This document shows positions 23,655 to 36,928 of a stretch of 64,000 bases of DNA, in pieces. The DNA comes from a virus (Duplodnaviria; Caudoviricetes). The stretch is from positions 128,001 to 192,000 of IMG/VR virus record IMGVR_UViG_3300049182_000044. One strand, 5' to 3'. The translations under genes and the position numbers were made by a program. The notes under the pieces were generated by a model, which did not search any database, was not told the origin of the DNA, and was given only the letters and a program-made list of their open reading frames with translations. Within the stretch, counting starts at the first letter, position 1, and the number at the start of each line of letters is the position of its first letter.

Positions 23655-24407
23655 TTATTCAGCACCATCCAAGTACGGAATATACCGAGGACGCCTGACA
23701 ATCAAGATGTTGCGAGGGTACTCTGTGCGAATATCGTGGAATGATTTGCCATAACCGGGCTGCACGATCTTTGATTTCGTACTGTACTTTTCAACGTGTC
23801 CAAACCAGCGACTCGGATCGCACCCAGGCGTTTGAATGCAGATCTTTCGATCAGTGAGAACACTACCACTGTTGTACGTAGCTGCACCGAACGCAAGATG
23901 TTCGTAATCACTGGCAACCGGGAATCGAACTGCATGATAAGACATCTTGCTCTTGATTACGCCTGCTCTTATCTGAAGCTCTGCATCGAATCGGTTTTCC
24001 CATGTCCACTTCTGCTTCAAGACCGGATCGAGCTTCGTCAAGTCTTTCCACACGTTGAAACGTTCTGTCCCATCCTTGTTGTAGGCGATGGTTGTCTGCC
24101 CCAAGCCGAAGCCGTATTCACGGGATGTCTTCAACTCCGCCCGCGATGACCAGCATTTTTTATGCTTCAAGCTGATGCAGGTTTCTTGCTCGATCTTCGC
24201 TCCCATGAAGGAACGCAAAGGCAGGTCCGGCCACAGTTGGTCTAAGGTACGACGCAAGACCGGAATGAGTGGAACAGCGTTCGGAGGGAGCTCCGGGAGT
24301 TTTAAGCCAGGCGTGTTGATCTCCGGCTTTAGGTTGGCCTCTTGTCCATTCGCGACCAGCGCCATCGCAAATAGAAGAGCGCCTAGACTTACTCTAAGCG
24401 CTTTCAT
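23655..24407 (-). CDS. Lytic transglycosylase (SLT-like endolysin) with N-terminal signal/SAR sequence
   Basis: Catalytic EQET motif, GLGQ motif, AATYNSG motif; hydrophobic N-terminus; four Cys. Confidence 0.75.
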   Translation of the reverse strand: MKALRVSLGALLFAMALVANGQEANLKPEINTPGLKLPELPPNAVPLIPVLRRTLDQLWPDLPLRSFMGAKIEQETCISLKHKKCWSSRAELKTSREYGFGLGQTTIAYNKDGTERFNVWKDLTKLDPVLKQKWTWENRFDAELQIRAGVIKSKMSYHAVRFPVASDYEHLAFGAATYNSGSVLTDRKICIQTPGCDPSRWFGHVEKYSTKSKIVQPGYGKSFHDIRTEYPRNILIVRRPRYIPYLDGAE

Positions 24408-24410
24408 GAC

Positions 24411-24764
24411 CTACCCCCGAACAAAGAACTGAGCTGCAACGACAATGCAAGTACAGATCACAACGGCGACGGCACAGAACACCATTGCAGCAGCCGTGTT
24501 GCGATGATCTTTCGCTTGCTCGTACAACTCTTTCATGTCGATGTAGTTGAACAGACAGTACTTGCGGGTGACGTGCGCGATCAAGGCAATTGCCAGGAAC
24601 ACACCCATCACATACATCATTGTCTGCAACGCACCGTAGTCAGGGCTGAACAACAGCGCGATCATGCCGACCATGAACGACAGACGAAACACCTCGTTCA
24701 GCGTGTAGAAGCGGCCGAGCAGAGCGGTGATTGGTGCGAACAGACGGTTGATAAACTTAATCAT
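24411..24764 (-). CDS. Holin-like membrane protein
   Basis: 117 aa with about 3 hydrophobic helices, directly upstream of the transglycosylase. Confidence 0.55.
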   Translation of the reverse strand: MIKFINRLFAPITALLGRFYTLNEVFRLSFMVGMIALLFSPDYGALQTMMYVMGVFLAIALIAHVTRKYCLFNYIDMKELYEQAKDHRNTAAAMVFCAVAVVICTCIVVAAQFFVRG

Positions 24765-24783: not shown

Positions 24784-25797
24784 TTAAAAGTATTTATGTC
24801 CTGGGCCGAAGCCGTATGGATCGTAGTAGGCCGTATAGTACGTCCTGTTGTAGGCAGAAACGTGTCCAGATGCTACAACCTCGTAGAGCGCAGAACCTTC
24901 GTTCGACAACAGGATGTAGTGAATTCCAGTCTTAGTATCCCGATAAACTGCGTGCTTGCCTTCACCAAAGCCTGCCCACGTAGTCATCGCCGCATTTGTG
25001 GGATAGATTGCATTGGTCTTTGGATGAATAGTGTTATCCCAACCGAAGTCAGTGCCGATCCATCTACGCGGTGAAGACTTGCCCTTATTGGGACCGTCTT
25101 GGATTATGGCTGTGCCGTTGTTCGGAACTGGCTCTGAGAGAAATTCTTTGAAAAAACCTTTAGCCATCCAGCCAAGAGTGCCTGGCCCACCCCAGTTAAA
25201 TTTCCAGCCGATACCTGTCGGGCCTTCTACGATAGGAACGTAGCCGCAATCTACGCTATTCACTTCGATGGCTTGGTTATAGGATCCACCTGTGCCGTTT
25301 GCATACCTACCCATCTTTGTTGTACCGGAACAGTACGTAGATAGCAAGGTACCTGCAGCCGGTGGTGCCGTGTAGCCGCAGTCAAGACTGTTGTACTCGA
25401 TGGCTTGGTTATAGGATCCACCTGTGCCGTTAGCGTACGTACCCATCTTGGTCGTGCCCTGGCAATAGGTATCGAGCAAAGTGCCAGCTGCAGGTGGGGG
25501 AACGTAACCGCATTCAGTGCTATTGCTTTGAATGATCGAGTTGTACGTTCCGCCTGTGCCGTTTGCATAGGTGCCCATCTTCGTAGTGCCGTCACAGTAC
25601 GTAGAGATCAACGTACCGTACGGCAATGGGCAAACAATATCGAGCCATCCAGTGTTGTCTGCGTTTCGGATCTTTGCGTTACCAGGAGTGGCTAGAATCC
25701 AGGTGCCGTCTGCTTTCTTGATCTTCCACCCGCCTTTGCAGAACACATCCACCCAGGCAGTATTTGCTGCGTTGCGTATTTTAGGAACATTTGCCAC
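24784..25797 (-). CDS. Fibre tip/adhesin with three 44-aa Cys-containing tandem repeats
   Basis: GTL(I/L)xTYCxGTTKMGxYANGTGGxYNxxIxxNSxxCGY x3; KIRNA.NT.W N-terminal repeats. Confidence 0.65.
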   Translation of the reverse strand: MANVPKIRNAANTAWVDVFCKGGWKIKKADGTWILATPGNAKIRNADNTGWLDIVCPLPYGTLISTYCDGTTKMGTYANGTGGTYNSIIQSNSTECGYVPPPAAGTLLDTYCQGTTKMGTYANGTGGSYNQAIEYNSLDCGYTAPPAAGTLLSTYCSGTTKMGRYANGTGGSYNQAIEVNSVDCGYVPIVEGPTGIGWKFNWGGPGTLGWMAKGFFKEFLSEPVPNNGTAIIQDGPNKGKSSPRRWIGTDFGWDNTIHPKTNAIYPTNAAMTTWAGFGEGKHAVYRDTKTGIHYILLSNEGSALYEVVASGHVSAYNRTYYTAYYDPYGFGPGHKYF

Positions 25798-25806
25798 AAT
25801 AGCTCC

Positions 25807-26763
25807 TTAAGCATTAGGGTTGATCCAGATGCCATACGCTCCGATAGCGGAGCCTGGGTCAGTAGATTGAATGCGAATGTTCACGGAGCCTGCGGGACCT
25901 TGGGGACCTTGTGGGCCAGTTGGACCTGCCGGACCTTGAGCACCAGTAGCGCCAGTTGGACCTGTCGGGCCAGTCAAGCCACGAGGGCCAGTTGGACCTG
26001 CTGGACCCGTCGCTCCGGTCGGACCTTGGGGACCTGCTGGGCCTGTATCACCTTGAGGACCCTGAGGACCTTGTGAGCCAGTTGGACCTTGAGGACCTGC
26101 CGGACCTTGGGGTCCCTGAGGACCTTGTTCTCCTGCAGGGCCTTGTGAGCCAGTTGGACCTTCGGGGCCTTGCACACCCTGAACACCTTGAGCGCCGTCA
26201 GTACCAGATGGACCTTGAGGACCTTGTGGTCCGCGTTCGCCAGTTGGGCCTATAGCACCACGAGGACCCGCTGGGCCAGTCGCACCTACAGGACCCGCTG
26301 GGCCGATAGGGCCTGCCGGACCTTGTAAGCCACGTGGACCAATATCGCCTTCAGGGCCTTGAGGACCAACTGGACCTTGAGGGCCAACTGGGCCTGCTGG
26401 ACCCGTTGATCCCGGAGGGCCTACATATCCCATACCGTTTGGTACAGTCTGAACGTATTGGAAAATCTCCTCGTATTGAGTAACTTCTTGCCATGTACCG
26501 TTGAAAGGTGCGCGTGGTACAGTTAGGTCCAGGGCGCGATACACCTTACGATAGAACGGCGAGCGCGAGTCCATCATCACCCAGATGCCGTTGATCGGCA
26601 CAACCAAACCACTCGGCTCAGTAATGGATGCGATGACGAAGTACTCTACGCTAGAAATCGGGTGATTGATCTTGAACACCACCGGATTGTATTCATCGAG
26701 GTTGCGGATATCAGACAGGTATTGAATGCTATCTACGAAATCCGTAAGAGTAAAATTGGACAT
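25807..26763 (-). CDS. Collagen-like triple-helix fibre protein
   Basis: About 60 uninterrupted Gly-X-Y triplets (counted by eye); likely start MSNF at 26763. Confidence 0.85.
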
Positions 26764-26840
26764 ACAAGCCTCTTTTGATTGTCTTTGCACATACCACAAA
26801 TTAACATAAACGTGTTGTGCCCAGGCCAACAACGACAAAA

Positions 26841-26879: not shown

Positions 26880-27245
26880 TTACTGAATAGTCTGCGCTGG
26901 AATCAGATTGAGTTCCGCAAGAATCGACTTCACGCGTTCCTTGAATACTTCATCCGGATTGGGTGAAACTTTCGGAACATGGGTAGCGGTTCCAGTCATC
27001 GCGGTGAGCTCTTCGGGAACGTACTGATTAACGATGTCAACCAGTGGTACATCGACTACCTCAAGCTTGGTCCACTCACGAACTGGTGCGGCGTTTTCGA
27101 TGGTGGATTGCAGTTGGGCGGGATCAGCCGGAAGCAGCATGTTCAGGCTAATAGGATCTTTCCCTTCGCAGGTGTATTGAACCACGAAGGACTTCTGGCG
27201 TAGGTTAACGCTTTCAATTTTCCAGCTATATGTGATAGAAGACAT
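26880..27245 (-). CDS. Hypothetical fibre-associated protein
   Basis: Likely start MSSITYSWKI at 27245, 1 nt after the panD-like stop, with an AAGGA RBS. Confidence 0.55.
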   Translation of the reverse strand: MSSITYSWKIESVNLRQKSFVVQYTCEGKDPISLNMLLPADPAQLQSTIENAAPVREWTKLEVVDVPLVDIVNQYVPEELTAMTGTATHVPKVSPNPDEVFKERVKSILAELNLIPAQTIQ

Positions 27246-27246
27246 T

Positions 27247-27624
27247 TTAGTTTCCTTCAATTACGTGATGCGTTTCAGTTTTCAGCACGTTGTTTGATTC
27301 ATCAACGTACACCACAGTGTGAGTCAGTCCAGCAATTTCATCCGGCGTCACATGCTCAAGTCGATTGATGACCACTTTGTCACCGGCACAGAACAAACGA
27401 GCAGGAGGCCCGTTCAATGTAACCGCACCAGGAGCTCCTGGGATAATGTAGGTCTCCCAATGATTACCGTTCGCCAAGTTGTTCACATGAACAAACTCAT
27501 AAGGCAGAAGTCCCGCAGCTTTGATAAGCTCGGGACAGAGACTGATCGAACCCTTGTAGTTCAAGTTCGCATCAGTCACTGTTGCCCTATGAATCTTCGC
27601 TGTAATGAAGATTCGTTGCTTCAT
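27247..27624 (-). CDS. panD: Aspartate 1-decarboxylase (PanD)-family pyruvoyl enzyme, divergent
   Basis: AKIHRATVTDANLNYKG|SI autoprocessing site, AAGL.P.E, NG..xETY, NG..A..GD.V.I motifs align with E. coli PanD (alignment from memory). Confidence 0.85.
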   Translation of the reverse strand: MKQRIFITAKIHRATVTDANLNYKGSISLCPELIKAAGLLPYEFVHVNNLANGNHWETYIIPGAPGAVTLNGPPARLFCAGDKVVINRLEHVTPDEIAGLTHTVVYVDESNNVLKTETHHVIEGN

Positions 27625-29264
27625 TTAATTGCCTTCACAATCTCTGGGCGTACTGCATCCCAGTCCAAGGTGGTATAGTCAAAGCCGTACTGGTTCACAC
27701 CCGCACCGACAACGTAACCGTTGACGATGATTGGGCTACCCGAAGTAAGTGGCAGGTAGAGCTGCGTGTCTTGCGCTGCACTGACTTGAACGATCTCTTG
27801 CGAAGTCCACCCGATGAGGTTCGCCCACTTGGTGTTTTCAACCCCACTACGAATCGAGTCATTGTCGAACAGACCGCCGATGACACCTTCTTCTGCTTCT
27901 GCTTTCCATTTCTCAGGATTAGCAGACCACCACCATTGAGTATCGTCGCGCTTCGTCCACATGGCGTGTTCTTCTGACCAGAACATGTCTGTGCCTACGA
28001 AGTTCAACATGCGACGGCCACCCAAGATAGGCATGTGATAGTCAACCACAGGTGTCGGCCCATTGACGCCCATTACCATATCGCCGACCTTAATGGTTTC
28101 AATGTTACTCCACGTGCCATCACCCATGAGTACCTGAGAGCCTGCTGGGAAGCAAGTGTTATCGGGCGGGTAGTATTGTGCAGGAATTTCTGTGCGAACG
28201 ATGTACGGAGGTTTCGGAGAAGCCGTAGCATTTGAAAGTGCGGGACCATCTGTTCCGAGTAACGTAGTCGACAGCAAAAGCACCCGTGCATAACCATCGG
28301 CACCTTTAGAACCCGCAGAGCCCCAAGCAGATTCAGAATCACCTTCCCATCTTGCGAACGTCCACCAAATTTGCGGATAGTTGTAGCGAGTTGCCAGAGA
28401 AGTCCAAGTAGGATCAGCCCAATAGCCACCGCTGCCGCCTGCGCCACCGAAACCATCACTCGCGCCACCTGCACCCGGTGCGATATTCTCACCAGTGTAG
28501 TACTGATTTGTAGCGAGGTCATACATTCCATACTGGCTAATCAGATACGGAGCTGTTTCAACCTTACCCAGTAGGTAAGCGCCACCTGTGTAGGACTCCC
28601 ACATATGCGCCCACTTTCCAGATTCGCCAGCAGGATAACCAGCACCACCTAAACCACCCGGAGATTCTGCCGCTTTTTTATCCTGTTCACCACCTGTACC
28701 ACCTGCGCCACCGCGACCACCATCTGCAGATGCGATGCCAACGATTGAAGTTGCACCACCATCAGCACCGGGATTTCCGTTACTGCCATGACGACCAGTA
28801 CCATCACCGCTAGGAACTTCATACCAGCTAACAGAAGCACCACCTGCGCCACCTGCACCAACAATAATTGTTAAAGTTGATCCCGGTGTTACATCAATCA
28901 CGCGATAAATAGTTTGACCTTTACCGCCTGCGCCACCGCCGCCGCCTGCAGTGCCGTTTGTCCAATCGTATTCACCGGCGCCGCCACCTGAACCGCCACC
29001 GCCCGAGCCACCGCGCAACGCGATTGCAGCTTTAGTTATGCCCGCAGGAATTGGAAGTGAATATGTACCGGGAACCGTGTACTCGAAATCGAGAGCCGGA
29101 TTGCCGTCAGCTGGCTTGCCGTAGAAGTCTGACAACAGCACAGTACCGCTCGGCTTCTGACACAGCGCGCGAGCGTCAGTGTCATTAAATGTTAAGGGGC
29201 CACCGCGTCCCAGCTGATCCAAGATCATCTGAAACGTCAGCGCCCCGCTTGTTGGGAGCGCCAT
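27621..29264 (-). CDS. Gly-rich distal adhesin (gp38-like) with a C-terminal Hint domain
   Basis: MALPTSG..SDFYGK N-terminus and polyglycine loops. CFPAGSQVLMGDG..IETIKVGD.V (Cys371) and SEEH are Hint motifs. Confidence 0.75.
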   Translation of the reverse strand: MALPTSGALTFQMILDQLGRGGPLTFNDTDARALCQKPSGTVLLSDFYGKPADGNPALDFEYTVPGTYSLPIPAGITKAAIALRGGSGGGGSGGGAGEYDWTNGTAGGGGGAGGKGQTIYRVIDVTPGSTLTIIVGAGGAGGASVSWYEVPSGDGTGRHGSNGNPGADGGATSIVGIASADGGRGGAGGTGGEQDKKAAESPGGLGGAGYPAGESGKWAHMWESYTGGAYLLGKVETAPYLISQYGMYDLATNQYYTGENIAPGAGGASDGFGGAGGSGGYWADPTWTSLATRYNYPQIWWTFARWEGDSESAWGSAGSKGADGYARVLLLSTTLLGTDGPALSNATASPKPPYIVRTEIPAQYYPPDNTCFPAGSQVLMGDGTWSNIETIKVGDMVMGVNGPTPVVDYHMPILGGRRMLNFVGTDMFWSEEHAMWTKRDDTQWWWSANPEKWKAEAEEGVIGGLFDNDSIRSGVENTKWANLIGWTSQEIVQVSAAQDTQLYLPLTSGSPIIVNGYVVGAGVNQYGFDYTTLDWDAVRPEIVKAIK

Positions 29265-29266
29265 TC

Positions 29267-29953
29267 TTACTCTCCTTTCAGTGTAGCAACTTCTTTGCGA
29301 AGGATATGGATTTCCTCGTGCAGTTCTTTGAAGGCCTCAACAAACAGGCCTGCAAGGTTGCCGTAGGCAAGGCTCAGCTTGCCATCTGCATCTTCCGACA
29401 CAGCTTCCGGCAACACCTTCTGAACGTGCTGCGCGATCAAGCCTGTCTGACGCAAGCCTTCAACGTCGGTACGATCATAGGTGCAGCCGAGCAATTCAGT
29501 AATGCGCGCCATAGCATTGTCGATGCGAACGATGTTGGTCTTAACGCGCTCGTCCGACAAGCCGGAGATGTTGCCATTGACGGTCATACCGTTGGTCGGT
29601 TGTCCGAAAGTGATCTGACGCTGGCCGCCAATCGACACGCCGATAACACCGTCTGCCACCCAGTGGAAGCCCGTGTCTTTGACCAGGTCTTCGTCGAACG
29701 TGATGCCAGGTTGAGCTGCAGTTCCAGATGCAACCAGCAAGCGACCCGTCATCGTGTCACCAGCCTTGTTCACCGGAACATATCCGAGAGCGTCAGTGAT
29801 CATGTCAGCCGTAATGCTGGTAATGCCATCTGTTCCAACTTGAACGCTCTTTGTCGAGCCGTCACTTAGAGTGAACGTCGCGGTCGATCCGGAGACGGTA
29901 ACATCTTTGATGACCGGCGTCGCCAGCATACGTAAGTCAAGTTTCGTAGTCAT
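29267..29953 (-). CDS. Tail fibre with peptidase S74 intramolecular chaperone
   Basis: SDERVKTNI, GLIAQHVQKVLPEAV, Y..L....VEAFKEL coiled-coil end; NKAGDTMTG module. Confidence 0.85.
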   Translation of the reverse strand: MTTKLDLRMLATPVIKDVTVSGSTATFTLSDGSTKSVQVGTDGITSITADMITDALGYVPVNKAGDTMTGRLLVASGTAAQPGITFDEDLVKDTGFHWVADGVIGVSIGGQRQITFGQPTNGMTVNGNISGLSDERVKTNIVRIDNAMARITELLGCTYDRTDVEGLRQTGLIAQHVQKVLPEAVSEDADGKLSLAYGNLAGLFVEAFKELHEEIHILRKEVATLKGE

Positions 29954-30444: not shown

Positions 30445-33400
30445 TTAACGACGAGTTTCAAGCATAGCCATGGCCATGTTACGCACCGAATAGTTCTCGT
30501 ATGTGAAGGTCGAAGTGTTTGTACCTTTCGACATGCACAGCGATAACGTGTACGTACCAGCTGGAACGCCTGTGAACACACCCATAGCATTCATCGACAG
30601 GGTGTAGCCTGGTCCGACGTTGTTATTCATCACACCAGTCACATACGTTCCATTTGGGCCAGACAGTTTGAACGCTGAAACGCACTCTGTGAAGTTCGTA
30701 TTGTGCTTCCAGTACGTTCCCCAGTAGTACATGTCAAAGTTCGACGACGTGCTAGCTTTCGTACCGCAACCAGACCAGCTCGCCCATACCATGATTGGCT
30801 GCGTACCCGTTACGGTAACAACCATTTGCAGGACTGGGTTTGAAGTTGGGTCCGGCATATCCAAAACAGGATTGTTCGGACCTGAGAGCGTAATGTTCGT
30901 CTGCGTCTTGACCGGCTGCGTCGCTACTTGTGCTTGAGTCACCGCGTTGTTGTCAATGTTCAAGGTCTTAACAGCGAGATTATCAATCGCACCGTTGTAG
31001 GCCGTGATCGAACGCGCTGCCATTGCCAAAGCCGTGACTGATCCGTCCACGAGCATGTTCCCATCGACCTTCATGTCGAGGATACGCCACGCAGTGCCAT
31101 CCCAGAAACGAGTCTGAGAGAAGCTGTTGCTGTACTGCATGACGGTATCACCGATGATCGGGCCGCTTTCAACTTGAGCTGCGGTCGTCGCAGAAGCATC
31201 ATTCCAGTTAGTACGACCTGAAATGTAGAAGTTACGCGAACCACGCTTACCATCTGAACCCGGCGAGCCTGCACCGGAAGAGCCTTTGATCTTCGTCAGT
31301 GAGAAGCGACGCACCAGAGTAGGCATACCCGCTTTCGACGCGGTGAGAGTAACGTCACCAGTATCGTTATTGCTGGAGAAGCCTGTGACGCTGACCGATG
31401 CCCCACTCAACGTAGAGGTCACTCCCGCGCTATCAGTTTTAGTGATAGTCCAGGTATTGGTCGTGTCAGTCGAGCCTTCAAACACACGAATCGTCGAACG
31501 AGCACCGGTGAAGTTCGTCACCACACCAGCCGTGCTAGCTGCAAACACGAATGCCTCGTTGTCCAACGCCGCGAAGACTGCGTTGCGGCCATCGATACCG
31601 TTCGTACCATTCAAACCCGTCTTCGATTTGGCCACTGAGAAGCGCTTCATCAACGCTGGGTACTCGGCACGCGACGCCATGATGTCCACGTAGCCGTTGT
31701 CAACTGACATTGCGGTAATGCGAACCGTATTGGCACTGATCGTGCTAGTGACACCTGCCGAGCTAGAACGAGTGAACGTCCACAGATCGGTTACGTCATT
31801 CGCACCTTCATACACCCGCATTTGGGTCATCGCCGAAGCGAAGTCACCAACCACACCGTTAATATCAGCAGCAAGCGTATGCGATTCGTTGGTCAACAAC
31901 GTAGTCAAGCCATTAGAACCTTCACGCAGCTTGACAATCGTGACGTAGTCCAAGTACGTGGTGCCACCAGTGGTGATAGCTGCACGAATTGTAACCGCAT
32001 CGCTGGTCATGTCCTCATACAGCAGCGTAGCAACGTTTCCGTTAGTAGCCAGCACAGCCGCACCATCATAGGCCACGAATGAAGCATCCCCCGGGATGTT
32101 TTGCGGGTTTACCGTGAACGTGATCTGTTCAGGTGTCGAAGTGCCGTCTGCGTTGATACGGAAGATCTGCGACGTAGCGTTCAGGAACAAGGCCTTAGCG
32201 TCTTCCCCTGTGCCACCTGGATCGGTAGGATCAATTCCACCACCTTCATTTGCTCCACCGCCTGGGCCACCTGTACCGCCAAACGACAAGGACATGATTT
32301 CGTCACGAGTCATGTAGCGTTGCGAAAGCTCTTCGCGCGTAATCAGACGTGTCTTCGACTTACCTGTGAGGAATACGATTGCGGTTGCTTTGACCCCATC
32401 TTCCTTGTCGATGCCGGGGATGATGAACTTGTACTGGTTGGTATTCGACACGTTGTAGTCGGTACCCATCTGCATCACAGTGTTGCCAAACAACAGCGTG
32501 TTGTTCTCATTACCCACATCGAGAACCGGAACCGCATCGTAGAACGCATGGCGATAGTCCGACTGCCCACGCTTCAAGTTGAATTGCGAGAAGATAATCG
32601 CGTTGCAGTACTCCTTACGCGGCTTCGAGATGTAACGCCATACTTCCACCTTAGAGCCAACTGGATGCTGCTCTGCAAACACAATCGTGCCGGACGAAGC
32701 GTTGTACTGAGAAGCGTGAACGTACAGGCCACCTACTGAAATAATGTGTGCCTGTACGGAAGCACCTGCAGGAACTTCCGTGAGCGTGTACGTCTGCGTA
32801 TTAGCGGCAATCGTGAACTGAGTACGATCACAGATCAACTCCTCACCGTCGTCTTCAACAGCCTCGAAAGCAACAATGTCGATTTCGTAGCCATCTGGTA
32901 CAAACTGAGGCAGCGTAACAGTGCCGTTTGTCTTGTTCACCACGTTCAGCATCGGGTCTTGCAGCTGACCGCCCACGAACACCATTGCAAAGTCAGGACT
33001 CAAACCTGCGCTGTAGGTACGCGTAGCACCATTACCTACGAAGGTCGAGCGAGCCGAAATGATCTTGTTCGGGTACATATAGACGCCAGCAGGATCGACC
33101 CACTGAGGACCCGTATTCAGACCCAACGTTTCGCGTGCTTCGAGTTCAAGCGCTTCATTGACGAACGCGACTACTACGATCTTCGCACCGGCAGGAACCG
33201 TAACAGAGCTGCGAATCTCGATCTCGTTGACCGACACTTCGTACTTGTCTTTGGCGAGAAGCACGCCGTCAATCGTGACCAACGTGTTGCGCTTTTCAAC
33301 GTACAGAACGTCATTGAGCACAATCGGCTCAACCGGAGACGCTGCTACAACTTCCTTGCGTAGCGCACGGGTCGATGCACCAAGCTCTTCAAAGTTCACG

Positions 33401-34791
33401 TACTGAACGATGCTGACATTACCGATAGGTGCCGCTTCGGTGAACGTAATGGAGGTACCTGCGAAGATGTACCTGTTCGGGGAAACGAGCAAGCCATCAA
33501 CGAACACCATGATGTAGAGCGTGCTGTCTGGCACAACTGATGTGAAGAATTCCCAGTCTGATCCGTCAGCCACATACTCAGTCGTAGCAAACGTCAAGAA
33601 TGAACCGTTACTAGGAACACTACGGAAGCCTACGAACTCAACTGGAACTCCAGCTGCAGGAGCCGCACCCAACAGTGTAAGTTCACCATCAAGCGCCATG
33701 CTGTATTCGTTGCGGTTCAACAGCTTGCCGCCGACGAACACCATGTAGCGATCGCCTTGCTCAAACACGCTGCTTGGAATCGAAGCCGACAGCCGGAACG
33801 TCAAGCGTGCACCGTTACCTGTGAAGCTAGCCTTAACTGGAATGTAGTCAGCCGAAACGTTCTGATCTTCTTCACCGACACGGCGCCACGTATTGCGTCC
33901 GACACCGAGAACGTAGTTACGATCAATGTCAGACGTACGCGACGGCAACTGCTGGCGAGTTGCACGCCAGATGTTGATGATCGACTGCTTGGTGAGCGTG
34001 CTGAAGTTCTTTTCGAGGATCGTGAAGTAGTTCGTCTCTTTATCGAAACGTACACGACGCGATTCACCCGCGCCAGGGCCAGACACGATTTGCACGATCA
34101 CTACTTCCTGATCGTTCAGCCAGAAGCCACCTGTCTTCTCAACGTCGAGTATAAACTCATCTACTGCAGGAACATCTTCTACCTCGCCGTGATAGGTGAG
34201 ATCATAACCAAGGAAGCCCCAGTTGAGCGAGCCTGCACCATAACGAACAGCCAGGCTACCCGAAGTCAATATCAAGTTGTTTTCAGGATTGGTGGATTGA
34301 TCTTGCACGACCACCGCATTGGTGTACGACGACTGAGGCTTAACCAGTGTACGAACGCTAGCAGCAGAAGCCAGTGAAGCATTTGTTCCAACTGTGACAT
34401 TGATAACGTCACCCAGGCGAGCTGCGGTCACGTAAATGTACAGCTTCATGCCGTTGCCAACTTCTTTGACATACGGTACACGGAACGTTCCGTGTGCGAA
34501 CAGTTCCCCGCTCTCGAGGTACAGACCTACTTCGGTCAACGTCCAAGTACCACCAGCGATAGGCTCTTTAGACGGAATGAGAAGTGAGACCTTGACAGTG
34601 GACGCACTGACTACTTCGATAGACTCAACTTCACCCGCGTACACTGGATCTTGTGTCAGAGCGATGTCTCCAACGCTCAGCGTAACATCTGGTGCTTCAG
34701 TGACTGCGAATCGCGTCATGTTGACAAGGAATCCGCCAGCCTCAGCATTAGTGATTGCACTAAGCCCAAGGTCGGTTACTAAAATCGCCAT
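30445..34791 (-). CDS. Long proximal tail fibre/baseplate-attached protein
   Basis: N-terminal T..G....LTEVGLY...GELFA collar-type domain, repeated MVFVGG..Q/L modules, two LxNExxxxxAxxxGxV repeats; likely start MAILVT at 34791. Confidence 0.7.
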   Translation of the reverse strand: MAILVTDLGLSAITNAEAGGFLVNMTRFAVTEAPDVTLSVGDIALTQDPVYAGEVESIEVVSASTVKVSLLIPSKEPIAGGTWTLTEVGLYLESGELFAHGTFRVPYVKEVGNGMKLYIYVTAARLGDVINVTVGTNASLASAASVRTLVKPQSSYTNAVVVQDQSTNPENNLILTSGSLAVRYGAGSLNWGFLGYDLTYHGEVEDVPAVDEFILDVEKTGGFWLNDQEVVIVQIVSGPGAGESRRVRFDKETNYFTILEKNFSTLTKQSIINIWRATRQQLPSRTSDIDRNYVLGVGRNTWRRVGEEDQNVSADYIPVKASFTGNGARLTFRLSASIPSSVFEQGDRYMVFVGGKLLNRNEYSMALDGELTLLGAAPAAGVPVEFVGFRSVPSNGSFLTFATTEYVADGSDWEFFTSVVPDSTLYIMVFVDGLLVSPNRYIFAGTSITFTEAAPIGNVSIVQYVNFEELGASTRALRKEVVAASPVEPIVLNDVLYVEKRNTLVTIDGVLLAKDKYEVSVNEIEIRSSVTVPAGAKIVVVAFVNEALELEARETLGLNTGPQWVDPAGVYMYPNKIISARSTFVGNGATRTYSAGLSPDFAMVFVGGQLQDPMLNVVNKTNGTVTLPQFVPDGYEIDIVAFEAVEDDGEELICDRTQFTIAANTQTYTLTEVPAGASVQAHIISVGGLYVHASQYNASSGTIVFAEQHPVGSKVEVWRYISKPRKEYCNAIIFSQFNLKRGQSDYRHAFYDAVPVLDVGNENNTLLFGNTVMQMGTDYNVSNTNQYKFIIPGIDKEDGVKATAIVFLTGKSKTRLITREELSQRYMTRDEIMSLSFGGTGGPGGGANEGGGIDPTDPGGTGEDAKALFLNATSQIFRINADGTSTPEQITFTVNPQNIPGDASFVAYDGAAVLATNGNVATLLYEDMTSDAVTIRAAITTGGTTYLDYVTIVKLREGSNGLTTLLTNESHTLAADINGVVGDFASAMTQMRVYEGANDVTDLWTFTRSSSAGVTSTISANTVRITAMSVDNGYVDIMASRAEYPALMKRFSVAKSKTGLNGTNGIDGRNAVFAALDNEAFVFAASTAGVVTNFTGARSTIRVFEGSTDTTNTWTITKTDSAGVTSTLSGASVSVTGFSSNNDTGDVTLTASKAGMPTLVRRFSLTKIKGSSGAGSPGSDGKRGSRNFYISGRTNWNDASATTAAQVESGPIIGDTVMQYSNSFSQTRFWDGTAWRILDMKVDGNMLVDGSVTALAMAARSITAYNGAIDNLAVKTLNIDNNAVTQAQVATQPVKTQTNITLSGPNNPVLDMPDPTSNPVLQMVVTVTGTQPIMVWASWSGCGTKASTSSNFDMYYWGTYWKHNTNFTECVSAFKLSGPNGTYVTGVMNNNVGPGYTLSMNAMGVFTGVPAGTYTLSLCMSKGTNTSTFTYENYSVRNMAMAMLETRR

Positions 34792-34805
34792 TATAGACTC
34801 CAATC

Positions 34806-35468
34806 TTATTCAATAGTTATGTGATCTTCCCTGAACGGCCCTGCCGCACCGAAAGCGATATCTGACGTAGGAAACACCTCAATCAGATTGAATCGCTCGA
34901 TAACGAGTGCCGCTGGTGCGAAATCGTAGAATAGCTCTTTGATTCGTCCGATCAGCGAAACGCCTGGGCCGAGCTGAAGCTCTTCAAGTCCGAGAAGTGC
35001 TACGCCAAGCTCGATATGCGTTGTTTTAAACCAGACTCCACCTTCATCGACCAGTGGACCTTGCGGTTCGAGATAGAAGTTGACGTAGTCTTTCGTGTAC
35101 AGGTTTTCGACTTCCGTTGTAGCGTTCAGCACCAGGTCGATGAACTTGACGAATATCTCAGTACCATTTGAATCCGGGTACATCGAAAGCTGCGTAGCGA
35201 TCTTCGTCAAATTATCGGCATTTAGATTCAGAACGTCTTGCGTCAAGTCGAAGCCTAGCAGTCGCGCCGTGTACTGGAGGATGTTGTCATCCGAATTTTC
35301 GCCGATGAAGCGAATCTTCTCTAACTGTGCAACTGGATTCTCGACGTTCGTGTCCATAACCTGGGCAAACACGTCAAGCATGTCTGCCCAGGTAGGGTTA
35401 CTGGTAACAATCGGTACGGCTAGATCAAGCAAGTCGGCCTGCGGTTTATCCAGAAAGTCATCTGCCAT
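34806..35468 (-). CDS. Baseplate wedge subunit (gp7 / P2 gpI-like)
   Basis: Position after the gp6-like gene; ARLLGFD motif; ends with a PA...I motif. Confidence 0.5.
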   Translation of the reverse strand: MADDFLDKPQADLLDLAVPIVTSNPTWADMLDVFAQVMDTNVENPVAQLEKIRFIGENSDDNILQYTARLLGFDLTQDVLNLNADNLTKIATQLSMYPDSNGTEIFVKFIDLVLNATTEVENLYTKDYVNFYLEPQGPLVDEGGVWFKTTHIELGVALLGLEELQLGPGVSLIGRIKELFYDFAPAALVIERFNLIEVFPTSDIAFGAAGPFREDHITIE

Positions 35469-36928
35469 TATCGCCTCGACATAGCTGAAGGAGCACGCTC
35501 AGTGTATCGAGCACTAATGCTCAAAGTTCCTAACTCGAAGTACGCCAGTGGATCATGCTTTCCATCCTCGTCTAGTGCGACGAGGTCTTCCATTGGCTCT
35601 GCGATCTCCATGTAGTCAACATCAATCGTAGCGCAATCCATAATGTCGTACAACGAAACACGCTTGCCCAGTGTATCGGTCGTGCGATTGAACAGTGCCC
35701 GGATGTTTGCTTCAACTACTGGCACAACTTCTTCAGGCATCGCATTGGCTTTTAGAGCCAGCGTAACGTCAATGTCACGCACGATCTTCCTTGGGTTGAA
35801 CTTCTGAATCTTGATTGCAGCATGAGACTTCGTTCCGAACCACTCTAAGAATGATTCCCATTCGCTATCGGAGAAAGCCTCTCCCTCTTCAGGAAGAATG
35901 CAGATACGAATCACGTTCATCCAACGAAGGTCTTTTGGAGCAATGTCCTTCTGCGCCTGAATGGTCACCGACGCAACACCTGGATACGAGGATGTGATTG
36001 CTCGATAGTCCGGAGGATTCACTGCGCGCTTACGTGCCTTGTAGAGATGCGGTGCCAGGAATTTGTAGTAGGTCGAATCTTTTTGATCTGCTCCACCCGA
36101 AATTACGCTCGTCGTTACACCTTGAATGTCAGGCGCTGTACTAAGCTGAATTTCAAGACCACGGCCACCGTTGTTGCCCACACGACCGTTAGTCGTAGTG
36201 TACGTGATGACGATGTTACTGCCGATTGACGGGAGACGGCCTGAATGCCCGTCACCGAACGCCAACACCGTGTCACCCAAGCCTGACGTAGCATCGTAGT
36301 ACACAGGATCATCTGGCCCGGCTGTCCAGATACCGTCGTCGATCACTTCCCACAGCTCACTTGTGTTAAGCGATGGGTTGACCAGCTCGACTTGAACGTC
36401 TGTATTCGATACGATGAATCCTGGCTCATTGAGATAAATTTCGCGGAACGAAGTCGAATCAGCTGGAATGGTTTGCGTCTTCACAGTGCCTTCAAACAGC
36501 TTGCCATCTGCCGTGGTTGCCCCAGCATTGAACATAATGGCGTTGCGATTGAAGAACGGCTGCCCGTTGACAGTGAACTGCGTGAACTTGGGTATTAAGC
36601 GCGGATAGGCCGAATCGCCTCCACGACTCAGCCTAACATCACATCCAGCAGGATTCTTTCGATTGATACGCACACCCAACATACGGGTGATCGCGTAGAT
36701 CGAGCTTTCACGAACAGCGGTATGAAGGAAGCCTTCACGCGCTGCAACTTCAACTGCGAATTGGTTAAATGTGCCAACCGCAGCCATCATTTCGATCAAC
36801 GTTTGACCAGTGGACGAGGTAAGCAAGTCGTTCCACGTTGCGCGTGAGTTCAGGAACAGCTGCAACTGAACAACCAAGGACTCGAAGTCTGGTTTCGTTT
36901 GCGATAGTTGTAATGGTACGCCAGCCAC
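35468..36928 (-). CDS. Baseplate wedge protein (T4 gp6 / baseplate J-like)
   Basis: PDFESL..QL, STGQTLIE, A.RESS..I...G, SGGAD, RAV..DY motifs. Confidence 0.8.
   Translation of the reverse strand: MAGVPLQLSQTKPDFESLVVQLQLFLNSRATWNDLLTSSTGQTLIEMMAAVGTFNQFAVEVAAREGFLHTAVRESSIYAITRMLGVRINRKNPAGCDVRLSRGGDSAYPRLIPKFTQFTVNGQPFFNRNAIMFNAGATTADGKLFEGTVKTQTIPADSTSFREIYLNEPGFIVSNTDVQVELVNPSLNTSELWEVIDDGIWTAGPDDPVYYDATSGLGDTVLAFGDGHSGRLPSIGSNIVITYTTTNGRVGNNGGRGLEIQLSTAPDIQGVTTSVISGGADQKDSTYYKFLAPHLYKARKRAVNPPDYRAITSSYPGVASVTIQAQKDIAPKDLRWMNVIRICILPEEGEAFSDSEWESFLEWFGTKSHAAIKIQKFNPRKIVRDIDVTLALKANAMPEEVVPVVEANIRALFNRTTDTLGKRVSLYDIMDCATIDVDYMEIAEPMEDLVALDEDGKHDPLAYFELGTLSISARYTERAPSAMSRR

What the first reader, a model, noticed from the sequence alone, without database searches (positions are those of the whole stretch)
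27247..27624. PanD-like enzyme keeps its processing residues but has a remodelled substrate pocket
By-eye alignment to E. coli PanD (offset +1, reference recalled from memory): K10, H12, Y23, G25-S26, T58 and Y59 are kept. The position of Arg54, which binds the substrate's side-chain carboxylate, is His55 (NGNHWETY vs NGKRFSTY). The NGAAA loop is NGPPA, and the conserved Asp29 position is Cys30. Inference: the enzyme still forms pyruvoyl but may not decarboxylate aspartate, so the panD label may be functionally wrong.
Basis: partly seen in the sequence, partly recalled or inferred. Interest (0 to 1): 0.65.

Follow-up and report, generated by a model that had tools for sequence, protein, structure and literature searches.

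The report
Phage PanD-like decarboxylase, non-aspartate clade
A soil jumbo phage carries, inside its tail-fibre operon, an intact relative of the vitamin-B5 enzyme PanD that belongs to an undescribed branch of the family which keeps the catalytic machinery but has lost every group that normally grips aspartate's side chain, so it probably decarboxylates something else.

Summary
ORF 27247-27624 (-) is an intact 125-aa PanD homologue (Pfam 116 bits; model pLDDT 96, matching solved PanDs at 1.4-1.6 A). It keeps K10, H12, Y23, G25-S26, T58, Y59 and N71, but has His55 for Arg54 and Pro73-Pro74 for Ala74-Ala75.

This is a clade signature, not a one-off. In 141 relatives W56, P74 and F78 are 97-100% conserved and position 55 is never Arg (His 76%, otherwise S/L/F/T/P). 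On a 200-sequence tree these form one supported split. Cys30 is not a clade feature.

In M. tuberculosis PanD, Arg54 and the backbone NH groups of Ala74 and Ala75 hold the ligand carboxylate, and R54A is inactive. All three donors are absent here.

Of 15 bacterial genomes with this type:
- 5 also carry a canonical PanD (within about 1 kb of panC in two of them);
- 5, including four CPR genomes, have no panC.

About half the bacterial loci carry an ATP-grasp ligase nearby. In phages the gene moves alone and tends to co-occur with a rare Hedgehog-type Hint tail protein, which is its upstream neighbour here.

Best reading (about 0.6): a pyruvoyl decarboxylase whose substrate is not free aspartate. 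The substrate is unknown. The panD label is probably wrong in function.

The parts
27247..27624 (-). PanD-like gene (125 aa, P0001), a member of the W56/P74 'HWETY-NGPPA' clade of PF02261
   Evidence: ORF. Pfam PF02261 scores 116.6 bits. TIGR00223 scores 100.3, below its cut-off of 106. AlphaFold model has pLDDT 95.9. Foldseek top hits are all PanD, TM 0.84-0.91.
27547..27552 (-). Codons for Gly25-Ser26, the predicted self-cleavage site. Ser26 would become the pyruvoyl group.
   Evidence: Aligns with G24-S25 of Salmonella PanD. G is 97% and S 98% conserved in the clade.
27448..27471 (-). Motif N52-G-N-H55-W56-E-T58-Y59. His replaces the specificity Arg54. Trp56 is clade-invariant. The catalytic Thr-Tyr pair is kept.
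   Evidence: Role of Arg54 from PMC6969166 and PMC3314653.
27400..27414 (-). Loop N71-G72-P73-P74-A75. The two prolines replace Ala74 and Ala75, whose backbone NH groups bind the ligand carboxylate in M. tuberculosis PanD.
   Evidence: Sequence. Clade frequencies are P73 92% and P74 97%. Literature.
27621..29264 (-). Upstream gene (547 aa): a glycine-rich tail protein ending in a Hedgehog-type Hint domain. Its stop codon overlaps the PanD-like start as ATGA.
   Evidence: Pfam Hom_end_hint, Hint and Gly_rich_2 are weak hits. PHROG minor tail protein. Homologues listed.
27624..28154 (-). Hint domain (aa 371-547). It starts T|CFPAGS and carries an invariant W-S-E-E-H block.
   Evidence: Alignment A3. 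The same domain sits next to a PanD-like gene in L035 and L101.
26880..27260 (-). Downstream small gene (126 aa from TTG, or 121 aa from the ATG at 27245, one base after the PanD-like stop). No known family.
   Evidence: ORF. No Pfam, PHROG or PADLOC hit.
29267..29953 (-). Tail-fibre protein with an S74 intramolecular-chaperone domain
   Evidence: Pfam Peptidase_S74 at 1.5e-13. PHROG long tail fibre families.
25807..26838 (-). Collagen-like tail-fibre protein
   Evidence: Pfam Collagen at 1.4e-28. PHROG tail fibre families.

Best explanation
The gene encodes a self-processing, pyruvoyl-dependent amino-acid alpha-decarboxylase of the PanD fold. It belongs to a distinct clade, not described in the literature searched here, that has given up recognition of aspartate's beta-carboxylate.

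Inferred steps:
- The proenzyme cleaves between Gly25 and Ser26 with the help of Thr58 and Asn71, giving a pyruvoyl N-terminus.
- The pyruvoyl group forms a Schiff base with the alpha-amine of the substrate.
- Lys10 pairs with the alpha-carboxylate and Tyr59 reprotonates after loss of CO2.

The far end of the pocket is different. In place of Arg54 and the two backbone NH donors of Ala74 and Ala75 it has His55, Trp56, Pro73-Pro74, Phe78 and Asn48. This makes the far end less charged and more aromatic.

The substrate is therefore most likely either an amino acid whose side chain does not end in a free carboxylate (a beta-substituted alanine such as Asn, Dap, Cys, Ser or His), or an aspartyl or other residue whose side chain is already tied up in an amide.

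In bacteria the clade is a paralogue of housekeeping PanD and works beside carboxylate-amine (ATP-grasp) ligases. In phages it travels as a single gene. Here it is co-transcribed and translationally coupled with late tail-fibre genes.
For: Shown here:
- Family, fold and catalytic set are intact.
- The Arg54, Ala74 and Ala75 equivalents are replaced, and the replacements are conserved in 141 relatives. Position 55 is never Arg and varies H/S/L/F/T/P.
- These sequences form one starred split, SH-aLRT 97, with 85 non-Arg rows plus 1 Arg row out of 200.

From the literature: Arg54* and the amides of Ala74 and Ala75 make the hydrogen bonds to the ligand carboxylate, R54A is inactive, and these residues are called strictly conserved among ADCs.

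Comparative genomics:
- Five genomes (three Armatimonadota, one beta-proteobacterium, one Phycisphaerales) carry this type plus a canonical Arg-type PanD. In two Armatimonadota genomes the canonical copy lies within about 1 kb of panC.
- Four CPR genomes and one proteobacterial MAG have this type and no panC.
- In the order of G003, all 27 of the 30 fetched PanD loci that my motif scan could read were canonical, and G003's own copy was the non-Arg exception.
- ATP-grasp ligases lie within 6 kb in about 25 of 50 bacterial loci, in four architectures.
- The phage genome has no panB or panC.
- The gene is a single-gene insertion in Achromobacter phage 2-1 relative to phage JWF.
Against: - No enzyme assay exists for any member of the clade.
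- Five genomes with panC have this type as their only PF02261 homologue (G002-G004, G010, G074). It might serve as their aspartate decarboxylase, although 24 of 61 genomes of that order have no PanD at all.
- A protonated His55, with Arg76 nearby, could in principle still bind a carboxylate.
- An ATP-grasp partner is also compatible with beta-alanine as the product. Carnosine synthase is an ATP-grasp enzyme that ligates beta-alanine (PMC7367687, listed, concerns carnosine synthesis; the enzyme class is from my own knowledge).
- The score against the NCBI equivalog model misses the cut-off only narrowly (100.3 against 106).
Confidence: 0.6

Rival explanations
1. It is an ordinary aspartate 1-decarboxylase carried as an auxiliary metabolic gene. 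It makes beta-alanine to boost host pantothenate and CoA during infection, and His55 is a tolerated substitute for Arg54.
For: - The full catalytic set and PanD fold are present.
- The Pfam score is well above threshold.
- Other phages carry canonical-type PanD genes, for example Gordonia phage Jace.
- In 5 genomes with panC this type is the only PanD homologue.
Against: - R54A abolishes activity and ligand binding in M. tuberculosis PanD.
- A quarter of the clade has Ser, Leu, Phe, Thr or Pro at this position.
- Pro73 and Pro74 remove both backbone NH donors.
- The type co-exists with a canonical, panC-linked PanD in 5 genomes and occurs in 5 genomes without panC.
- TIGR00223 is below its cut-off.
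Confidence: 0.22
2. It is part of a tail-fibre capping system. The Hedgehog-type Hint domain of the upstream protein turns the fibre's C-terminus into a thioester. The amine made by the PanD-like enzyme is the nucleophile that resolves it, leaving a small amide cap on the fibre. In bacteria an ATP-grasp ligase would play the activating role of the Hint domain.
For: - The ATGA overlap couples the PanD-like gene to the Hint-ended gene.
- The Hint domain keeps Cys1 (CFPAGS) and an invariant S-E-E-H block.
- The same Hint domain lies next to a PanD-like gene in L035 and L101.
- It occurs elsewhere in 5 of 19 IMG/VR records that carry the PanD type.
- Only 4 of 50,697 phage records carry it (3 phages), and one of them is Achromobacter phage 2-1, the only cultured phage with this PanD type.
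- In three Saccharibacteria the order is collagen-like fibre, ATP-grasp, PanD-like.
Against: - Phage JWF has the Hint protein but no PanD-like gene.
- Four other Hint-protein loci have no adjacent PanD-like gene.
- In other phages the gene sits among replication or nucleotide-metabolism genes.
- The L101 copy next to a Hint protein lacks Tyr23 and the proton donor Tyr59.
- The co-occurrence may reflect shared phage lineages or hosts.
Confidence: 0.1
3. It is a non-catalytic relic or structural protein that has kept the PanD fold, for example a virion or assembly component, and decarboxylation is not the selected function.
For: - It is located inside a structural operon.
- One relative (L101) has lost Tyr23 and Tyr59.
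Against: - K10, H12, Y23, G25, S26, T58, Y59, N71, G72 and N111 are 94-100% conserved across 141 clade members from phages and many bacterial phyla. That pattern is the signature of a working active site.
- It has no PHROG structural family.
Confidence: 0.05

Closest known systems
Canonical aspartate 1-decarboxylase PanD (E. coli, M. tuberculosis, H. pylori; EC 4.1.1.11; PF02261, TIGR00223)
   Same: Same fold (TM 0.84-0.91, rmsd 1.4-1.6 A). Same Gly-Ser self-cleavage site. Same Lys, His, Tyr, Thr-Tyr and Asn-Gly catalytic and processing residues.
   Different: Arg54 becomes His55. Ala74-Ala75 become Pro73-Pro74. Phe55 becomes Trp56. Trp47 becomes Asn48. Phe78 is added. It forms a separate clade. 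It is not linked to panB or panC. It falls below the equivalog cut-off. In bacteria it is a paralogue beside canonical PanD.
CrpG, the beta-methylaspartate alpha-decarboxylase of cryptophycin biosynthesis (a PanD homologue recruited to secondary metabolism; recalled from my own knowledge, not checked here)
   Same: A precedent for a PF02261 enzyme that acts on a substrate other than plain aspartate and sits outside the pantothenate pathway.
   Different: CrpG's substrate still has the beta-carboxylate. I did not compare sequences. The present clade has lost the carboxylate-binding groups altogether.
BtrJ/BtrK of butirosin biosynthesis (an ATP-grasp ligase paired with a decarboxylase acting on a side-chain-tethered glutamate; my own knowledge)
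   Same: Same logic of pairing a carboxylate-amine ligase with an alpha-decarboxylase. This is the gene pairing seen for this clade in bacteria.
   Different: BtrK is PLP-dependent and unrelated in fold. The pairing here is inferred from gene neighbourhood only, and the phage has no ATP-grasp gene.
Hedgehog-type (Hog) Hint autoprocessing domains (for the upstream neighbour)
   Same: Cys-Phe-Pro-(Ala)-Gly-Ser start, a Ser/Thr-x-x-His block, and a position at the C-terminal end of the protein.
   Different: It is found on a phage glycine-rich tail protein. Its nucleophile is unknown. The Pfam hits are below the gathering thresholds.

Membership tests
PanD / aspartate 1-decarboxylase (PF02261) | Sequence match to the family model above the curated threshold | tested here: met
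   PF02261 scores 116.6 bits against a cut-off of 25, over residues 4-113.
PanD / aspartate 1-decarboxylase (PF02261) | Double-psi beta-barrel PanD fold | tested here: met
   AlphaFold model with pLDDT 95.9. The top 40 Foldseek PDB hits are all PanD, with TM up to 0.91.
PanD / aspartate 1-decarboxylase (PF02261) | Gly-Ser self-cleavage site with Thr57 and Asn72 for pyruvoyl formation | tested here: met
   G25-S26, T58 and N71 are present and 96-100% conserved in the clade. The requirement for Thr57 comes from PMC3975893. Cleavage itself was not observed.
PanD / aspartate 1-decarboxylase (PF02261) | Catalytic Lys9, His11 and Tyr58 (proton donor) | tested here: met
   K10, H12 and Y59 are aligned and conserved.
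Functional aspartate 1-decarboxylase (EC 4.1.1.11, TIGR00223 equivalog) | Score above the equivalog model's trusted cut-off | tested here: not met
   100.3 bits against a cut-off of 106.
Functional aspartate 1-decarboxylase (EC 4.1.1.11, TIGR00223 equivalog) | Arg54 binding the substrate's side-chain carboxylate | tested here: not met
   His55 occupies this position. The clade never has Arg here except one sequence. Role.
Functional aspartate 1-decarboxylase (EC 4.1.1.11, TIGR00223 equivalog) | Ala74-Ala75 loop whose backbone NH groups bind the carboxylate | tested here: not met
   Pro73-Pro74 occupy these positions. Role.
Functional aspartate 1-decarboxylase (EC 4.1.1.11, TIGR00223 equivalog) | Pantothenate-pathway context (panB or panC in the genome or nearby) | tested here: not met
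   The 281.6-kb phage has no panC or panB. In bacteria the canonical copy, not this type, lies next to panC. Five genomes carrying this type lack panC.
Functional aspartate 1-decarboxylase (EC 4.1.1.11, TIGR00223 equivalog) | Beta-alanine formation from L-aspartate, or delta-panD complementation | not testable with these tools
   Needs expression and assay.
Hedgehog/intein (Hint) superfamily (upstream neighbour, aa 371-547) | N-terminal Cys nucleophile and Thr/Ser-x-x-His block | tested here: met
   Cys is present in 15 of 15 aligned sequences, and W-S-E-E-H is invariant in 27. Pfam Hint models score below gathering (29.2 against 32.1).

The most novel reading that the evidence does not exclude
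The PanD-like enzyme makes a small amine that caps a fibre protein. In the phage, the amine would attack the thioester generated by the Hedgehog-type Hint domain of the upstream tail protein, playing the role cholesterol plays for Hedgehog. In bacteria, including Saccharibacteria, ATP-grasp ligases would attach the same kind of amine to carboxylates, possibly on collagen-like surface fibres. This would be a new protein-modification chemistry on receptor-binding proteins.
Probability: 0.1. Interest if true: 0.9.

Novelty: new variant of a known kind. Interest (0 to 1): 0.62.

Why it matters
PanD has been treated as a one-reaction family, and genome pipelines call every member 'aspartate 1-decarboxylase'. 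This finding defines a separate clade by W56, P74 and F78 with no Arg54. It occurs in phages and, patchily, in at least ten bacterial phyla. Among the carriers are CPR bacteria that have no panC and so cannot use beta-alanine to make pantothenate.

If its substrate differs, three things follow:
- Many annotations, and metabolic reconstructions of CoA synthesis, are wrong for these genomes.
- A new pyruvoyl decarboxylase specificity becomes available for biocatalysis.
- A new ligase-plus-decarboxylase tailoring module, and a possible phage tail-fibre modification, become testable.

A cultured phage, Achromobacter phage 2-1, and its natural 'minus' control, phage JWF, are available for those tests.

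Tried and rejected
- **Complex prediction.** PanD-like with the Hint domain (alignments A1 and A3) gave 'no answer', score 0.00. This is not evidence either way.
- **Near relatives.** Megablast of 20 kb of the window against the phage collection found no near relative.
- **Family libraries.** PHROGs and PADLOC have no family for the PanD-like protein or for the 126-aa neighbour.
- **ATP-grasp partner in the phage.** None was found with custom HMMs of the two bacterial partner families or with PF08443 and PF13535.
- **c32 versus TPR-ATP-grasp.** hhalign of the Saccharibacteria partner (c32) against the TPR-ATP-grasp profile was insignificant. Its ATP-grasp nature rests on the fold search.
- **Other neighbours.** The Armatimonadota 658-aa neighbour (c2) and the roughly 500-aa neighbour (c13) stayed unexplained. 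Pfam and NCBIfam gave nothing, and the Atlas gave leads only.
- **Hint-protein contexts.** Four loci elsewhere showed no adjacent PanD-like gene. Their whole contigs could not be searched.
- **c32 relatives.** Three further relatives had no adjacent PanD-like gene, so the ligase does not need the decarboxylase.
- **Clade test.** The AU test of strict monophyly of all non-Arg rows did not finish in time.
- **Sequencing runs.** One DNA holder was found, a soil metagenome that is probably the source. No RNA holder was listed.
- **Literature.** Searches found no description of this clade or of phage PanD function.
- **Considered and dropped: DNA hypermodification.** I considered a role in thymidine or 7-deazaguanine hypermodification, because some phage copies lie near a DNA polymerase, ThyX, radical SAM or PP-loop genes. 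The neighbours are not conserved between phages, so I dropped it.

Full report
**What and where.** The window is bases 128001-192000 of a 281,566-bp IMG/VR virus record judged complete. The only public run that holds the stretch is a soil metagenome.

ORF 27247..27624 on the minus strand is open and encodes 125 residues. It lies in a run of co-directional late genes, in this order:
- baseplate wedge (35468-36928);
- tail proteins, including a 1452-aa fibre (30445-34803);
- an S74-chaperone fibre (29267-29953);
- a glycine-rich protein ending in a Hint domain (27621-29264);
- the PanD-like gene;
- a small gene of unknown family;
- a collagen-like fibre (25807-26838);
- a further 337-aa gene (24784-25797) and a 117-aa gene (24411-24764), neither with a PHROG family;
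- an endolysin-like gene (23655-24407).

The PanD-like ATG overlaps the upstream TGA as ATGA. An ATG of the next gene follows its stop by one base. No convincing promoter or terminator interrupts the block before about 23,613. Co-transcription is inferred, not shown.

**Checking the observation.** Pfam gives PF02261 at 116.6 bits. The NCBI equivalog model TIGR00223 gives 100.3 bits, just under its cut-off of 106.

K10, H12, Y23, G25-S26, T58 and Y59 are kept. NGNHWETY aligns with NGKRFSTY. NGPPA aligns with NGAAA. Cys30 aligns with Asp29. HMMER alignments to solved PanDs agree. An AlphaFold model (pLDDT 95.9) matches solved PanD structures and essentially nothing else (TM 0.84-0.91, rmsd 1.4-1.6 A).

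**It is a clade, not a quirk.** Among 264 aligned homologues I separated 141 with Trp56 and no Arg55 from 108 canonical sequences.

| Feature | Non-Arg group |
|---|---|
| Trp56 | 100% |
| Phe78 | 99% |
| Pro74 | 97% |
| Pro73 | 92% in this set (Cys in about half of the non-Arg rows later drawn from genome and virus loci) |
| Asn48 | 88% |
| His46 | 77% |
| Position 55 | His 76%, otherwise Ser, Leu, Phe, Thr or Pro |

- The catalytic and processing residues (K10, H12, Y23, G25, S26, T58, Y59, N71, G72, N111) are shared by both groups.
- Cys30 is a minority state (22%; Asp 62%), so that part of the finding carries no weight.
- A maximum-likelihood tree of 200 sequences puts the window's protein in a starred split (SH-aLRT 97) of 86 rows, 85 of them non-Arg.
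- The one Arg row inside still has Trp and Pro-Pro. The three non-Arg rows outside lack Pro-Pro.
- Viral and bacterial members interleave, with 6 label changes among 63 labelled rows.

The type is rare:
- A motif scan found 50 loci among the 185,579 species genomes, all MAGs.
- A similar scan found 19 loci in IMG/VR.
- Among cultured phages, only Achromobacter phage 2-1 has it.

**Why the changed residues matter.** In the M. tuberculosis PanD-pyrazinoate structure the ligand carboxylate is held by the guanidinium of Arg54* and by the backbone amides of Ala74 and Ala75. The authors state these are the same groups that bind the substrate. R54A is inactive and binds no ligand (PMC6969166). [quoted passage not shown] Arg54, Ala74 and Ala75 are listed as strictly conserved among ADCs, and Arg54 as the specificity residue (PMC3314653).

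In the window's protein all three donors are gone at once, because proline has no backbone NH. Trp47, described as close to the E. coli active site, is Asn48 here. By contrast Thr57, the only residue shown to be needed for activation, is kept.

I infer that pyruvoyl formation and decarboxylation chemistry are retained, but the canonical way of holding aspartate's side chain is not.

**Genome-level tests.** I examined 15 bacterial genomes that carry the clade.

| Group | Genomes |
|---|---|
| This type plus a canonical Arg-type PanD | G005, G071-G073, G075 |
| This type only, no panC | Four CPR genomes of about 1 Mb (G006-G009) and G001 (4.2 Mb) |
| This type only, panC present | G002-G004, G010, G074 |

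- In G071 and G073 the canonical copy lies within about 1 kb of panC, while the clade copy is elsewhere.
- The third group leaves aspartate activity possible.
- In the order of G003, 37 of 61 genomes have one PanD. All 27 of the 30 fetched relatives' loci that my motif scan could read were canonical (NGxRFETY...NGAAA). G003's own copy, read from L062, is the non-Arg exception.
- One of those 61 genomes (G051, locus L070) is unpublished. The tally includes it, but the conclusion does not depend on it.
- The phage has no panB or panC.

**Partners in bacteria.** Clustering the neighbours of the 50 loci showed that the commonest neighbour is a 430-490-aa protein with N-terminal TPR repeats. It occurs in 18 loci across Alpha- and Betaproteobacteria, Planctomycetota, Verrucomicrobiota and Acidobacteriota.

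Its C-terminal domain is a divergent ATP-grasp ligase:
- 10 of 19 members hit ATPgrasp_ST weakly, and others hit RimK, YheCD or CPSase_L_D2.
- There are weak RimK and CofF hits in NCBIfam.
- The Atlas features point to RimK and glutathione-synthase clusters.
- A custom HMM recovers all members.

Further ATP-grasp partners:
- Two loci have an ATPgrasp_ST protein instead.
- Armatimonadota loci have an ATPgrasp_TupA gene three genes away.
- In three Saccharibacteria the gene follows, by 13 bases, a 388-aa protein whose model (pLDDT 86.8) matches only ATP-grasp enzymes such as glutathione synthetase, YjfC/YgiC, Ddl and RimK. That protein is preceded by a collagen-like fibre protein.

In all, about 25 of 50 loci have an ATP-grasp ligase within 6 kb. 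I take this as a real functional link, though I have no measured background rate. The ligases do not need the decarboxylase: three other members of the Saccharibacteria ligase family have no PanD-like neighbour.

A different recurring neighbour set occurs in four loci: a PLP-dependent beta-replacement enzyme plus a possible acetyltransferase. It hints at a beta-substituted alanine as substrate.

**Phage contexts.** No neighbour is shared by all phage loci. The gene sits:
- beside RNR and ThyX in L004/L098;
- beside the DNA polymerase in Achromobacter phage 2-1;
- in a small biosynthetic cluster in L111;
- in the tail module here.

Comparison with Achromobacter phage JWF shows it is a single-gene insertion in phage 2-1. 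It can therefore work without a co-acquired partner. The phage has no detectable ATP-grasp gene.

One association does stand out. The C-terminal 180 residues of the upstream protein are a Hedgehog-type Hint domain, with T|CFPAGS and an invariant W-S-E-E-H block.
- The domain is found in only about 52 protein clusters and in 4 of 50,697 phage records.
- It lies directly beside a PanD-like gene in L035 and L101.
- It occurs elsewhere in 5 of 19 IMG/VR records that carry the PanD type, including 4 of the 7 that are at least half complete.
- It is present in Achromobacter phage 2-1.

Against a strict link, JWF has the Hint protein without the PanD-like gene. Four other Hint loci lack an adjacent copy. 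The L101 copy has lost Tyr23 and Tyr59.

**Reading.** The best-supported explanation (about 0.6) is a pyruvoyl-dependent alpha-decarboxylase whose physiological substrate is not free L-aspartate. The 'panD' label is right for the family and probably wrong for the function.

The substrate is unknown. The pocket changes and the partner enzymes point to one of two classes. One is a side chain without a terminal carboxylate. The other is an amino acid already tethered through its side chain, in which case the ligase and the decarboxylase would act in sequence as BtrJ and BtrK do (my own knowledge).

The rivals are:
- an ordinary aspartate decarboxylase serving as an auxiliary metabolic gene (about 0.22);
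- a tail-fibre capping role with the Hint thioester (about 0.1);
- a non-catalytic protein (about 0.05).

I found no paper describing this clade. That shows only that it is absent from the library searched.

Another first-stage note on this window (e1-5405460) proposes the fibre-tip modification idea. I tested its adjacency and co-occurrence claims in part, as described above.

Noticed in passing
window 27621-29264 (-), Hint domain 27624-28154: A glycine-rich tail protein ends in a Hedgehog-like Hint domain (T|CFPAGS, invariant WSEEH, Trp-rich insert) with nothing downstream to splice to. It is probably an autocleaving C-terminal module. The domain is rare: about 52 clusters, and 4 of 50,697 phage records.
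   Followed up: partly
L023:3998-6354, L043:3986-6354, L048:3163-6354: Saccharibacteria carry a three-gene row: a collagen-like fibre protein with a conserved N-terminus (WGDILN..FL), an uncharacterised ATP-grasp ligase (glutathione-synthetase-like by fold), and the PanD-like gene. These genomes have no panC.
   Followed up: partly
L101:5995-6375: The PanD-like copy beside a Hint-ended protein in this IMG/VR fragment has Ser for Tyr23 and Phe for the proton donor Tyr59, while keeping the Gly-Ser site. It may be a processing-competent but decarboxylation-dead variant.
   Followed up: no
L001:8397-11107 (Achromobacter phage 2-1): Immediately after the inserted panD-like gene, the DNA polymerase is annotated as two overlapping CDS (207 bp and 2517 bp). 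Phage JWF has one 2733-bp gene. This could be a frameshift, a sequencing error or an insertion scar.
   Followed up: no
L118:7493-11021, L119:7524-11076, L120:7490-10287: Large phages with the Hint-ended tail protein carry, three genes downstream, two radical SAM genes flanking a HamA/haem-oxygenase-like gene. This is an unexplained conserved cluster.
   Followed up: no
L044:3821-6008, also L051, L053, L059: In Coxiellaceae, Omnitrophota and a gammaproteobacterial MAG the PanD-like gene is divergent from a conserved trio: a PLP-dependent (PALP) enzyme, a possible GNAT acetyltransferase and a 200-aa unknown protein.
   Followed up: partly
P0121 (2178 aa) and P0217 (5026 aa): Two giant repeat proteins scored highly against the PanD query through 30 and 8 short stretches. 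They have none of the PanD motifs. These are probably repeat-driven false positives.
   Followed up: partly
window 26880-27260 (-): A small gene tightly coupled to the PanD-like stop has no family in Pfam, PHROGs or PADLOC, and no homologue next to other PanD-like genes. Its size recalls the PanD activator PanZ, but no similarity was found.
   Followed up: partly
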